Below, piece by piece: positions 38,540 through 40,334 of a stretch of 64,000 bases of DNA (the first letter of the stretch is position 1; the number at the start of each line of letters is the position of its first letter). The notes beneath the pieces are model-generated. The model ran no database searches. It was not told where the DNA came from and worked only from the letters and a program-made list of their open reading frames with translations. The stretch comes from a virus. Lineage: Duplodnaviria; Caudoviricetes. The stretch lies in IMG/VR virus record IMGVR_UViG_3300022602_000025; one strand, 5' to 3'. Both the position numbers and the translations under genes were made by a program.

Positions 38540-39247
38540 ATGAAAATTATTCACTTAGTAGAAAGCCAAGATATATTTGAACTTGATGCGACAGGTATGA
38601 CTCCTGATCAATATAAAGCTATCAAAGATGCTAATAAGCAAAGAGGACAGCAAATTGCTACTAAAATAGCTACTGCTAAGAATCAAGCTGCTCCAGCAGA
38701 TAATGGTGCGGGCAAGCAAGTAATGGGCAACATGGCTTCTCAATTACAACAGCAAGATACTCCAGCAGATACAACACAAGCAACAACTCCTCCAGCAGAT
38801 ACAGATCAAAAAGTAGGCCAAGATCCTCAAACATCAACAGGTCCTACAGGTGATCCAACTCTAGATGCTCCTTTACCGGGTCAACCTAAACAGGGTCGTG
38901 GCTTTGTTAAAGGTCTAGCAAATGTAGTAGGACAAACAGCCAAAGGTATTGGCGCTGTAGCAGGCGGAGTAGCTGGCGCTGGCCGCGCTCTTAAGAAAGG
39001 ATATAATGCAGGTGCTGATGCTGTTGGCGGTCCTGGTTATAGTTCACAAGCAGGCAATCAAGCTCCTGCAACAGGTGCTGCAAGATACACAGGCGGTGGT
39101 AGCGGTGCTGCAGGTGGTGCTGATCTACAAGCAATCAGTCAACGTCTTGCTAAAGTGGAAAAATTAGTGGGTGCAGCGGAAGGTACTACTAGTAATGCTA
39201 AACCTGTTGTTGAATTCTACAGTAAATTCCTAGGCAAAAACATTTAA
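38540..39247 (+). CDS. Low-complexity Gln/Ala/Gly-rich protein, possible internal head protein
   Basis: 235 aa. TAAATA late motif and GAGG SD upstream. N-terminus MKIIHLVES loosely resembles the T4 capsid-targeting leader (MKTYxEFIxE). Confidence 0.5.
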   Translation: MKIIHLVESQDIFELDATGMTPDQYKAIKDANKQRGQQIATKIATAKNQAAPADNGAGKQVMGNMASQLQQQDTPADTTQATTPPADTDQKVGQDPQTSTGPTGDPTLDAPLPGQPKQGRGFVKGLANVVGQTAKGIGAVAGGVAGAGRALKKGYNAGADAVGGPGYSSQAGNQAPATGAARYTGGGSGAAGGADLQAISQRLAKVEKLVGAAEGTTSNAKPVVEFYSKFLGKNI

Positions 39248-39462
39248 AAGAAAGGCAGTCCGCTTTCTTGTGTAGTTTCTAGATTATCTTTGATAATCGT
39301 ATTAATGATCGAACGATCAGCAACGTCTAGCTGATAAGCTTCTTCTAAGGATATGCCACCGCGCATAAACCAGACTAGCCTAAACAACTCGTCTTTTAAG
39401 GCCTTTACTTCCGAATCAATCTCTTCAATGAATTTGGCTACACCTTCATTGTCGAGAAGCAA
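39244..39462 (-). CDS. gp51-like small hub/tail assembly protein, probably expressed as a -1 frameshift extension of the upstream ORF
   Basis: 72 aa, TTG start with poorly spaced SD. Lies in the -1 frame of 39468-40334. LVWFMRGGISLEEAYQL resembles gp51/tail-chaperone C-terminal domains. Confidence 0.6.
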   Translation of the reverse strand: MLLDNEGVAKFIEEIDSEVKALKDELFRLVWFMRGGISLEEAYQLDVADRSIINTIIKDNLETTQESGLPFF

Positions 39463-39467
39463 AAGCC

Positions 39468-40334
39468 TTATGCGAAAAAATTTGACTGGTCGAAGTTAAT
39501 AGGTACTTCAAACGTTTCAGGAGCACCAGCTTCTTGTTGTAACGGTGTAGTGCTTAGTGTAACTGGTTTAAGTTGATTTTGTTCTTTAAGCTCGTTTAGG
39601 TGCTTTTGGATACTGTCAATTATGCTCTTGTCAGCGTTTTCAATAAACTCTTTAATATAACGAGTTTCAGTTACATCTTCATCAAACGTTTTAATTTTAA
39701 AAATAGAACTTACTAACATTTCTGTAGTTAGGTCAGTTAGCGTCTGAAAGCTCTTTTGAATATAAGCGGCTTTTTGATCATCACTTAGCGATTCGTCACC
39801 TGCGATCTGCATCATCTTATTAGTTTCAAAACTCTTTTGACTGATAGTGGTCATATGTTTATAAGTCAATGGCTTAACAAACATTACCAGTTCATCAGTA
39901 ACAGGTACTTGTTCGATCCATTGTGCATTTGATATTTGATCTATGAAACTGTGTAGTTCAATTTCGTAATCGCCTTCTTCAACTGTATTAGGAATTTTAT
40001 AGCTAACGGTCATTTTTTCACCGTAAGTAGCGATACGGATCGCAACTAACAACATGTCTAAATCAATGCTAGGACAGTTCCAAGCATTTTTAATATTAGG
40101 CACACAGCTTTGTATCACGTCAACAACGCTTTGTCCGTTTAGAAGTGCATCAGGAGTTTTCATTACTATCTCATCTTTAGCTGTCATGGAAAACACAGGT
40201 AGCTGTCCGTTTTCAGGAATCTCGATAGAACCAACAGGCCAATACTTACCTCCACTAGGTAAAGTGATATAAATCTTAGGTTGACGCATAAAGCGTGTCA
40301 ACGGATTGTTTTGATTAGTTGTGGTTTTAACCAT
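39468..40334 (-). CDS. gp26: Baseplate hub assembly / tail chaperone, T4 gp26-like
   Basis: 288 aa. RQPKIYITLPSGG...VFSMTAKDEIVMKTPDALLNG...IDLDMLLVAIRIATYGE is the gp26-family pattern. Divergent from the tape measure gene. Confidence 0.7.
   Translation of the reverse strand: MVKTTTNQNNPLTRFMRQPKIYITLPSGGKYWPVGSIEIPENGQLPVFSMTAKDEIVMKTPDALLNGQSVVDVIQSCVPNIKNAWNCPSIDLDMLLVAIRIATYGEKMTVSYKIPNTVEEGDYEIELHSFIDQISNAQWIEQVPVTDELVMFVKPLTYKHMTTISQKSFETNKMMQIAGDESLSDDQKAAYIQKSFQTLTDLTTEMLVSSIFKIKTFDEDVTETRYIKEFIENADKSIIDSIQKHLNELKEQNQLKPVTLSTTPLQQEAGAPETFEVPINFDQSNFFA
39474..39483 (-). promoter_or_regulatory. Candidate programmed -1 ribosomal frameshift site
   Basis: Minus strand reads TCA AAT TTT TTC GCA TAA. 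It contains in-phase heptamers T TTT TTC (39480-39474) and A AAT TTT (39483-39477). The -1 frame is open into 39244-39462. Confidence 0.65.

What the first reader, a model, noticed from the sequence alone, without database searches (positions are those of the whole stretch)
39244..40334. Programmed -1 frameshift fusing gp26-like and gp51-like ORFs: a lambda G/GT-style tail chaperone in a T4-like phage
Seen: the 288-aa ORF ends TCA AAT TTT TTC GCA TAA with two overlapping in-phase X XXY YYZ heptamers (T TTT TTC and A AAT TTT). A -1 slip reads CGC ATA AGG CTT TTG CTT CTC GAC, joining without a stop to the 72-aa ORF (weak TTG start, AAGG only 3 nt away) to give a ~363-aa fusion. Six nt after the slip site, GGCT...CAATGAA...AGCC...TTCATTG could form an H-type pseudoknot (4-bp plus 7-bp stems). 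The pair abuts the tape measure gene. Established: G/GT-type frameshifted chaperones next to tape measure genes are widespread in long-tailed phages, but T4 gp26 and gp51 are treated as separate genes. Inference: the gp26/gp51-type pair are tail assembly chaperones linked by recoding in this lineage.
Basis: partly seen in the sequence, partly recalled or inferred. Interest (0 to 1): 0.75.

Follow-up and report, generated by a model that had tools for sequence, protein, structure and literature searches.

The report
Conserved frameshift in baseplate-hub assembly gene
One tail-assembly gene of this giant freshwater phage very probably makes a short and a long protein, because some ribosomes slip back one base at a conserved TTTTTTC run that is followed by a conserved RNA stem; related phages encode the same two forms as two genes, as phage T4 may do with genes 26 and 51.

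Summary
On the minus strand a 288-aa gene of the T4 gp26/gp51 family (Pfam PF12322) ends with an in-phase T_TTT_TTC. The -1 frame then stays open for 76 codons, giving a 363-aa fusion.

The heptamer, the -1 offset and the extension are kept in every complete relative examined: about 80 metagenomic loci and 15 cultured jumbo phages, including RaK2, 121Q, GAP32, CBB, Atu_ph07 and the PA5oct group.

- All seven heptamer bases are invariant, while neighbouring synonymous sites are saturated.
- Ten of 63 distinct sequences have no start codon in the first 18 codons of the extension, so independent initiation is excluded.
- A 14-bp stem starting 5 nt after the heptamer covaries (88% paired against 30-58% in slid controls).
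- A sister clade has no frameshift. It carries two tandem genes: a short one and a long one with the extension fused in frame.

T4 gp26 and gp51 are both PF12322. T4 has two such genes; four complete jumbo genomes have one. The 72-aa ORF is therefore not a separate gp51-like gene. Its likeness to the gp51 tail is weak.

The lambda G/GT comparison holds for the recoding logic only. Family, fold and gene order differ, and binding is untested.

No paper or database record read mentions the frameshift. This scan has reported it before in at least eight other genomes.

The parts
39468..40334 (-). Zero-frame gene: 288-aa short form of a PF12322 (T4 gp26/gp51 family) baseplate-hub assembly protein; stop TAA at 39470..39468
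   Evidence: Pfam PF12322 E 4.8e-8, 33.4 bits against a cut-off of 24.5. phrog_150 baseplate hub. AF2 model pLDDT 86.5, matching viral baseplate-hub models in BFVD.
39474..39480 (-). Slippery heptamer U_UUU_UUC, in phase with the zero frame (codons AAU UUU UUC)
   Evidence: Invariant in 58 distinct relatives. Present as U_UUU_UUC or U_UUU_UUU in all complete homologues.
39244..39474 (-). -1 frame extension: 76 codons (RIRLLLLDNEG...GLPFF) plus stop TAA at 39246..39244; base 39474 is read twice
   Evidence: Codon-position entropy 0.91/0.57/1.33 shows coding in the -1 frame. The profile finds 442 representatives. Predicted helices at 297-326, 331-335 and 339-359 of the fusion.
39397..39470 (-). 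Stimulatory RNA structure: long-range stem closing a ~42-nt interior. The conserved core pairs 39455..39468 with 39399..39412. In the window it also encloses an inner hairpin, 39445..39451 with 39426..39432.
   Evidence: RNAfold -29.5 kcal/mol, z -4.5. RNAalifold finds the stem unprompted. 88% of cells are paired against 30-58% in slid controls, and 9 of 14 pairs change on both sides. Third-position entropy is 0.72 in the arms against 1.42 outside.
39244..39462 (-). The 72-aa ORF as a gene caller would call it (TTG start); judged not to be an independent gene
   Evidence: The TTG is TTA in the nearest relative, and 10 of 63 sequences have no start in the first 18 codons. Gene callers start it anywhere between profile positions 1 and 37.
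40377..40384 (-). T4-type late promoter motif TATAAATA, 43 nt upstream of the gp26-like start codon
   Evidence: Only 4 matches occur in the window, all just upstream of genes in the right orientation. A gp55-like late sigma factor lies at 32709..33623.
40414..42912 (+). Divergent neighbour: 832-aa probable tape measure protein (context, not part of the recoding unit)
   Evidence: Synteny with the large ORF between the gp26-like gene and the portal gene in Phosso, Cassandra, RaK2, 121Q, GAP32 and CBB. CBB_251 gave 29 peptides in virions (PMC5259590). There is a weak local match to T4 gp29. No family hit.

Best explanation
The gene at 40334..39468 (minus strand) encodes a baseplate-hub assembly protein of the T4 gp26/gp51 family. 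It is decoded in two ways. Most ribosomes stop at the UAA and make the 288-aa short form. A fraction pause on U_UUU_UUC, held up by an RNA stem that begins about 5 nt downstream. Both Phe-tRNAs then re-pair one base back and translation continues in the -1 frame for 76 codons. The result is a 363-aa long form with a C-terminal helical hairpin. These steps are shown by comparative evidence: the site, the frame offset, the coding nature of the extension, the lack of an independent start, the covarying stem, and a sister clade that encodes the short and long forms as two genes. Two points are inferred. First, both forms act together in hub and tail-tube initiation around the neighbouring tape measure protein. 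Second, the pair is the functional counterpart of T4 gp26 (short) and gp51 (long), and is analogous in logic to lambda G/GT. Frameshift efficiency and binding partners are unknown.
For: 1. Site and frame. An in-phase T_TTT_TT(C/T) and a 70-85-codon -1 ORF occur in every complete relative. This covers about 80 IMG/VR loci at 47-70% identity and Atu_ph07, Phosso, Cassandra, RaK2, 121Q, GAP32, Vibrio 2.275.O, RsoM2USA, XacN1, SCTP-2, RAS14 and CBB at 21-33% identity. The +1 frame closes within 3-29 codons.
2. Nucleotide-level selection. The heptamer and the following G are invariant. The codon before it varies (ACT, GAT, AAT, GTT, AGT, GCT) but always ends in T. No upstream third position is invariant.
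3. No independent start. Ten of 63 sequences lack ATG/GTG/TTG in the first 18 codons and Cassandra has none at all. The residues R-x-R-L-L right after the slip are nevertheless conserved.
4. RNA stem. It was predicted unprompted and it covaries.
5. Natural in-frame fusions of 319-351 aa continue through the junction as ..NF-R-x-(R/K)-(L/I)-(L/I)... Each of the three contigs with room upstream has a ~294-aa short paralogue directly upstream.
6. T4 gp26 and gp51 are both PF12322. T4 has two such genes; RaK2, 121Q, Atu_ph07 and Cassandra have one.
7. The fusion folds confidently as one unit, pLDDT 89.1 and pTM 0.84.
8. A late promoter motif sits upstream.
Against: There is no direct evidence of the long product: no peptide, RNA or reporter data. 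No RNA run holds this DNA. U_UUU_UUC is not among the most efficient bacterial heptamers (my own knowledge, not tested). In the RaK2/121Q/GAP32 branch no stable downstream structure was predicted (z -0.1 to -1.6), so the stimulator is not universal. The FF dipeptide is itself conserved, which explains part of the T richness. One non-frameshifting paralogue (L097) keeps TTTTTTC by chance or as a relic. The functional reading has no direct support. The fold has no solved relative. The complex test with the tape-measure N-half gave no verdict. The likeness of the extension to the gp51 tail is not significant.
Confidence: 0.85

Rival explanations
1. The same long protein is made by transcriptional slippage. 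RNA polymerase adds one extra U on the T6 run, so a minority of mRNAs carry the extension in frame.
For: A homopolymer run is present in all relatives and reaches T7-T9 in RsoM2USA, XacN1 and RAS14. The RaK2 branch shows no clear downstream structure.
Against: T6 is short for productive slippage (my own knowledge). The run is always in the X_XXY_YYZ phase. A covarying stem sits at the spacing typical of ribosomal frameshift stimulators, and polymerase slippage does not need one.
Confidence: 0.07
2. The downstream frame is a separate small gene, translated from its own start (TTG at 39462 in the window) or by termination-reinitiation, and yields a free ~72-aa protein.
For: The window has a TTG with AAGG nearby. 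Phosso and 121Q have ATG overlapping the stop, and several records annotate a small ORF.
Against: Ten of 63 sequences have no start in the first 18 codons. The nearest relative has TTA for the TTG. Conserved residues precede every candidate start. Called starts scatter over profile positions 1-37. Natural fusions show the domain attached to the PF12322 body. AGG is fixed by the stop-codon overlap and by the stem, not as a Shine-Dalgarno sequence.
Confidence: 0.04
3. The frame break is a homopolymer sequencing or assembly error, or a recent pseudogenising indel, and the true gene is one 363-aa ORF.
For: Homopolymer runs are error-prone. In-frame fused genes exist in a sister clade.
Against: The same break, in the same phase and with a zero-frame stop 1-12 codons later, recurs in about 80 independent assemblies and 15 finished phage genomes. 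Independent lake and freshwater runs hold the stretch.
Confidence: 0.01

Closest known systems
Bacteriophage T4 gp26 and gp51 (baseplate hub assembly proteins, Pfam PF12322 T4_baseplate)
   Same: The zero-frame protein is a member of the family. T4 has two paralogues, a shorter one (gp26, 208 aa) and a longer one with ~48 extra C-terminal residues (gp51, 249 aa). Both are described as hub assembly chaperones that are needed for assembly but not clearly part of the virion (PMC3004832). The fusion profile aligns collinearly with the gp51 family, including the gp51 tail.
   Different: T4 uses two separate, divergently transcribed genes and no frameshift. Here a single gene (single-copy in four complete jumbo genomes) gives both forms by recoding. 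Proteins here are longer (288 and 363 aa). The tail-to-extension homology is not significant (probability 14% and 1.6%).
Lambda gpG/gpGT and the conserved -1 frameshift of tail assembly chaperone genes (Xu, Hendrix and Duda 2004, cited in PMC9024508; reviewed in PMC5009743)
   Same: A -1 slip at a heptamer near the 3' end of a tail-assembly gene gives a short and a C-terminally extended product. The frameshift is conserved although the sequences diverge. The gene lies next to a probable tape measure gene.
   Different: The protein family and fold are unrelated. The gene is divergent from the tape-measure candidate rather than lying between the tube and tape-measure genes on one strand. The short form is about twice the size of gpG (my own knowledge). 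Binding to the tape measure or tube is untested.
Phage P2 E/E+E' tail chaperone frameshift
   Same: It occurs in a contractile-tailed phage and uses a T-rich heptamer (T_TTT_TTG by my recollection of Christie et al. 2002; not checked here).
   Different: The protein family differs, and P2 E/E' lie between the tube and tape-measure genes.
Tandem short plus long PF12322 genes in uncultured relatives (L089, L097, L098)
   Same: They have the same body and the same extension domain, 53% identical over the extension. The neighbours are the same kind: a large divergent ORF and a GIY-YIG gene.
   Different: The long form is a plain ORF with no slippery site at the junction, and the short form is a separate paralogue.

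Membership tests
Pfam PF12322 T4_baseplate (T4 gp26/gp51) | Profile match above the curated gathering score | tested here: met
   33.4 bits against a cut-off of 24.5, E 4.8e-8, residues 58-250. phrog_150 baseplate hub, E 1.4e-12. Both T4 gp26 and gp51 hit the same model.
Pfam PF12322 T4_baseplate (T4 gp26/gp51) | Fold shared with family members | tested here: met
   The AF2 model (pLDDT 86.5) matches 56 BFVD models at E<=1e-3. The named ones are baseplate hub or hub-assembly proteins, top TM 0.84-0.86.
Pfam PF12322 T4_baseplate (T4 gp26/gp51) | Required for hub assembly | not testable with these tools
   Needs genetics in a cultured relative.
Programmed -1 ribosomal frameshift site | In-phase X_XXY_YYZ heptamer with an open -1 frame from the site onward | tested here: met
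Programmed -1 ribosomal frameshift site | Site and frame offset conserved beyond what coding explains | tested here: met
Programmed -1 ribosomal frameshift site | Downstream stimulatory structure at 5-9 nt | tested here: met
   A covarying stem starts 5 nt after the heptamer in the window's clade, and also in Atu_ph07 and Phosso. It is not evident in the RaK2 branch.
Programmed -1 ribosomal frameshift site | Frameshift product observed | not testable with these tools
   No RNA or protein data exist for this DNA.
Lambda G/GT-type tail assembly chaperone | Homology to gpG/gpT-type chaperone families | tested here: not met
   Only PF12322 hits the body. The extension has no family. No solved fold matches.
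Lambda G/GT-type tail assembly chaperone | Located between the tube and tape-measure genes on the same strand | tested here: not met
   The gene is divergent from the tape-measure candidate. There is no tube gene in the window or in the 151-kb record.
Lambda G/GT-type tail assembly chaperone | Short and long forms bind the tape measure; the long form also binds the tube protein | tested here: inconclusive
   The complex test of the short form with the tape-measure N-half gave no verdict. The tube protein was not available.
Lambda G/GT-type tail assembly chaperone | Absent from the mature virion | not tested
   Indirect only. In the CBB virion mass-spectrometry table the neighbour CBB_251 is listed, while CBB_250 and CBB_249 are not (PMC5259590).
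T4 gp51 (as label for the 72-aa ORF) | Detectable homology of the extension to gp51 | tested here: inconclusive
   hhalign probability was 3.9% against the single sequence and 1.6% against the family. The full fusion against the gp51 family is collinear through the tail, but at probability 14%, E 0.0019.
   The GGCT/AGCC partner region is not conserved. CAATGAA/TTCATTG is a window-specific inner hairpin. Rfam finds nothing.

The most novel reading that the evidence does not exclude
The short and long forms made here by frameshifting are the true counterparts of T4 gp26 and gp51. On this reading the C-terminal helical hairpin is the module that distinguishes the 'catalytic' gp51 from gp26. A fixed short-to-long ratio, set by slip efficiency, by gene pairs or by paralogues, would then be a general requirement for starting a contractile tail on its tape measure. 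That would make the long-unexplained role of gp51 directly testable.
Probability: 0.35. Interest if true: 0.75.

Novelty: new variant of a known kind. Interest (0 to 1): 0.62.

Why it matters
Frameshifted tail chaperones are a textbook feature of lambda-like and P2-like phages, and T4-type phages have been treated as lacking one. Here a different protein family, the hub-assembly proteins gp26/gp51, shows the same short-plus-long logic. It is maintained in three interchangeable ways: recoding, tandem paralogues, and possibly T4's divergent paralogues.

- **Annotation.** The finding corrects the annotation of the cultured jumbo phage genomes examined. None of the 15 records read here joins the two frames, and several omit or truncate the second.
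- **RNA element.** It adds a covarying frameshift stimulator to the known set.
- **Experiments.** It gives a concrete experimental handle on what gp26 and gp51 do. Phages that make only the short form or only the long form can be built in laboratory strains.

Tried and rejected
- **Complex prediction.** The short form (alignment A4) was tested with the N-terminal 470 residues of the tape-measure candidate (A6). Result: no verdict, score 0.00. This is neither for nor against binding.
- **Tail tube gene.** A search for the tube family PF06841 in the window's 151-kb record found nothing. The extension-to-tube test could not be set up.
- **Nucleotide and tape-measure searches.** blastn of the region and tblastn of the 832-aa protein against cultured phages found no match. 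The 832-aa protein has no Pfam or PHROG family. hhalign of its N-half against T4 gp29 gave probability 1%.
- **Misaligned alignment.** My first fusion alignment (A3) placed the extension rows on the body. This suggested an internal repeat (ADKSIIDSIQKH.. against ADRSIINTIIKD..). hhalign rejected it at probability 0.3%. A3 was replaced by A7, built with natural fusions.
- **Solved structures.** Profile searches of the PDB for the body and the extension gave nothing meaningful. Foldseek and the wide VIA search matched only generic helical hairpins.
- **Rfam.** No match.
- **Expression data.** No RNA run holds this DNA.
- **Literature.** Eight searches found no paper describing this frameshift. 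The library holds open-access papers only, so an earlier report cannot be excluded.
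Full report
**What is there.** The finding lies on the minus strand. ORF 40334..39468 encodes 288 aa and ends TCA AAT TTT TTC GCA TAA. T_TTT_TTC (39480..39474) is in phase as X_XXY_YYZ. A -1 slip reads CGC ATA AGG CUU... and stays open for 76 codons, to the TAA at 39246..39244. A gene caller would list the downstream frame as a 72-aa ORF starting at a TTG.

**What the gene is.** The 288-aa protein passes the Pfam gathering score for PF12322 T4_baseplate and hits phrog_150, baseplate hub.
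- The window is a morphogenetic region of a T4-like phage. It holds gp6-, gp25- and gp5-like baseplate genes, a gp55-like late sigma factor, gp46/gp47, the gp20 portal, the gp21 protease and the gp23 capsid protein.
- The record is a 151-kb viral contig, estimated 43% complete. It is held by lake and freshwater metagenomes.
- The nearest cultured relatives of the protein, at 21-33% identity, are 94 records of jumbo myophages. They include Atu_ph07, Phosso, the PA5oct group, RaK2, 121Q, GAP32, CBB, XacN1 and RsoM2USA.
- TATAAATA occurs only four times in the window, each time just upstream of a gene in the right orientation. Two lie back to back in the 79-nt gap between this gene and its divergent neighbour. 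This fits late expression.

**Conservation of the site.** I fetched 80 IMG/VR loci at 47-70% protein identity.
- Every locus with a complete 3' end has T_TTT_TTC in phase and a 72-76-codon -1 frame. The +1 frame closes within 3-29 codons.
- The same holds in Atu_ph07, Phosso and Cassandra, in RaK2, 121Q and GAP32, and in Vibrio phage 2.275.O, SCTP-2 and CBB. RsoM2USA, XacN1 and RAS14 carry T_TTT_TTT instead.
- Among 58 distinct sequences, the seven heptamer bases and the next G have zero entropy. None of the 30 preceding third-codon positions is invariant (mean 1.51 bits).
- The codon before the heptamer changes its amino acid (ACT, GAT, AAT, GTT, AGT, GCT) but always ends in T.
- The extension shows the 1-2-3 entropy pattern of a coding frame, 0.91/0.57/1.33.

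**No independent start.**
- In 10 of 63 distinct sequences there is no ATG, GTG or TTG in the first 18 codons of the extension.
- Cassandra has none at all. The window's TTG is TTA in its nearest relative.
- The residues R-x-R-L-L that follow the slip directly are nevertheless invariant or nearly so.
- A profile of the extension finds 442 representatives in the 1.84-billion-protein library. Gene callers started these ORFs anywhere from profile position 1 to 37.
- In the 15 GenBank records I read, the second frame is truncated, given an ad hoc start, or missing. None joins the two frames.

**The RNA signal.**
- An ungapped alignment of 60 sequences from the heptamer onward (A1) was folded without guidance. 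RNAalifold returned a long-range stem pairing columns 14-23 with 72-81.
- Counted as a 14-pair helix (columns 13-26 with 69-82), 88% of cells pair, against 30-58% when the partner is slid by 1-3 columns. Nine pairs change on both sides. The covariation score is 0.227, against 0.03-0.07 for slid partners and 0.094 for shuffles.
- The covariation forces correlated amino-acid changes in the extension. For example, UGUAU pairs with AUACA and UGACU with AGUCA.
- Third-position entropy is halved inside the arms.
- In the window the stem is 39455..39468 with 39399..39412. The whole fold, 39397..39470, has -29.5 kcal/mol and z -4.5.
- Atu_ph07 (z -7.0) and Phosso (z -3.8) have an equivalent stem. Cassandra has a local hairpin. 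The RaK2, 121Q and GAP32 branch shows nothing clear.
CAATGAA/TTCATTG is an inner hairpin specific to the window. Rfam has no match.

**A natural control.**
- Searching with the extension found proteins of 319-351 aa in which a PF12322 body runs straight into the extension in one frame. The junction reads ..LDFC-x-NF-R-x-(R/K)-(L/I)-(L/I).. and has no slippery site.
- In all three contigs with enough upstream DNA (L089, L097, L098), a ~294-aa PF12322 paralogue without the extension lies directly upstream.
- This clade therefore makes a short and a long form from two genes. That supports two points: the extension is expressed as a C-terminal fusion, and both forms are wanted.
- One of these short paralogues keeps TTTTTTC with a closed -1 frame, and two do not. 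The FF motif alone therefore does not enforce the heptamer.

**Relation to T4.**
- T4 gene 26 is followed by gene 25. Gene 51 is its divergent neighbour.
- Both gp26 (E 9e-64) and gp51 (E 4e-52) match PF12322 over their whole domain. gp51 has about 48 extra C-terminal residues.
- T4 has two PF12322 genes. RaK2, 121Q, Atu_ph07 and Cassandra have one each.
- A profile of the full fusion (A7) aligns collinearly with a gp51 family profile (A8) over 212 columns. This places the extension on gp51 residues 197-245, but with probability only 14%.
- The extension alone picks the same register at 1.6%. It shows no likeness to gp26.
- The 72-aa ORF is therefore not a gp51-like gene. The idea that the long form corresponds to gp51 is attractive but unproven.

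**Structure and function.**
- The short form models at pLDDT 86.5. The fusion models at pLDDT 89.1 and pTM 0.84, with the extension as helices 297-326, 331-335 and 339-359.
- The fold matches only viral baseplate-hub models. It matches no solved structure, so it is not a gpG-type chaperone by descent.
- The 832-aa divergent neighbour is probably the tape measure. A large ORF sits in the same place in the relatives examined. Its CBB counterpart gave 29 peptides in virions, while the gp26-like protein is not in that table (PMC5259590). There is also a weak local match to T4 gp29.
- A complex test of the short form with the tape-measure N-half gave no verdict.
- T4 literature calls gp26 and gp51 hub assembly chaperones of unknown mechanism (PMC3004832).

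**Verdict.** A programmed -1 ribosomal frameshift is the best explanation (about 0.85). Transcriptional slippage, an independent small gene and a sequencing error are unlikely. The G/GT comparison describes how the system works, not what family it belongs to.

I found no paper or database record that describes the frameshift. Earlier follow-ups in this scan reached the same reading on at least eight other genomes. I saw those notes only after my own analysis.

Noticed in passing
window 40348-40355 (+) and 40377-40384 (-); also 26531-26538 (-) and 49815-49822 (-): TATAAATA, the T4 late-promoter motif, occurs only 4 times in 64 kb, fewer than the 8.8 expected by chance. All four lie immediately upstream of a gene in the right orientation. 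Two are back to back in the 79-nt gap between the gp26-like gene and the 832-aa gene.
   Followed up: partly
L089:2117-4035, L097:411-2389, L098:196-2114: A sister clade of uncultured phages carries two tandem PF12322 genes: a ~294-aa short one, then a 342-351-aa long one with the extension fused in frame. There is no frameshift. The short gene of L097 still has TTTTTTC, but the -1 frame closes after 6 codons.
   Followed up: yes
window 40414-42912 (+) and the divergent neighbours in L004-L083: The 832-aa tape-measure candidate and its counterparts share a conserved N-terminal motif (..NNAATEATL..LL..; ASEQTLQDLL in the window). They belong to no Pfam or PHROG family.
   Followed up: partly
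L001, L002, L003 and proteins P0003, P0021-P0136 (C-terminal part of the PF12322 body): Atu_ph07, Phosso, Cassandra and the in-frame-fusion clade carry paired CxxC motifs, like a zinc ribbon, just before the junction. The window's clade has lost them (..TTPLQQEAGAPETFEVP..).
   Followed up: no
GenBank records behind L001, L003, L085, L087, L091, L095: The second frame is not annotated in RaK2, Cassandra and RsoM2USA. It is truncated to an internal ATG in Atu_ph07, GAP32 and CBB. No record read joins the frames.
   Followed up: yes
window 36895-38057 (+): A class I methyltransferase (PF13489) and a segE-like GIY-YIG nuclease lie between gp46 and the gp26-like region. A GIY-YIG gene also lies near the PF12322 pair in L089.
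   Followed up: no
window 39244-39247: The convergent 235-aa ORF (38540..39247, +; no family hit) ends within 4 nt of the stop of the -1 extension. The two genes therefore abut tail to tail with no spacer.
   Followed up: no
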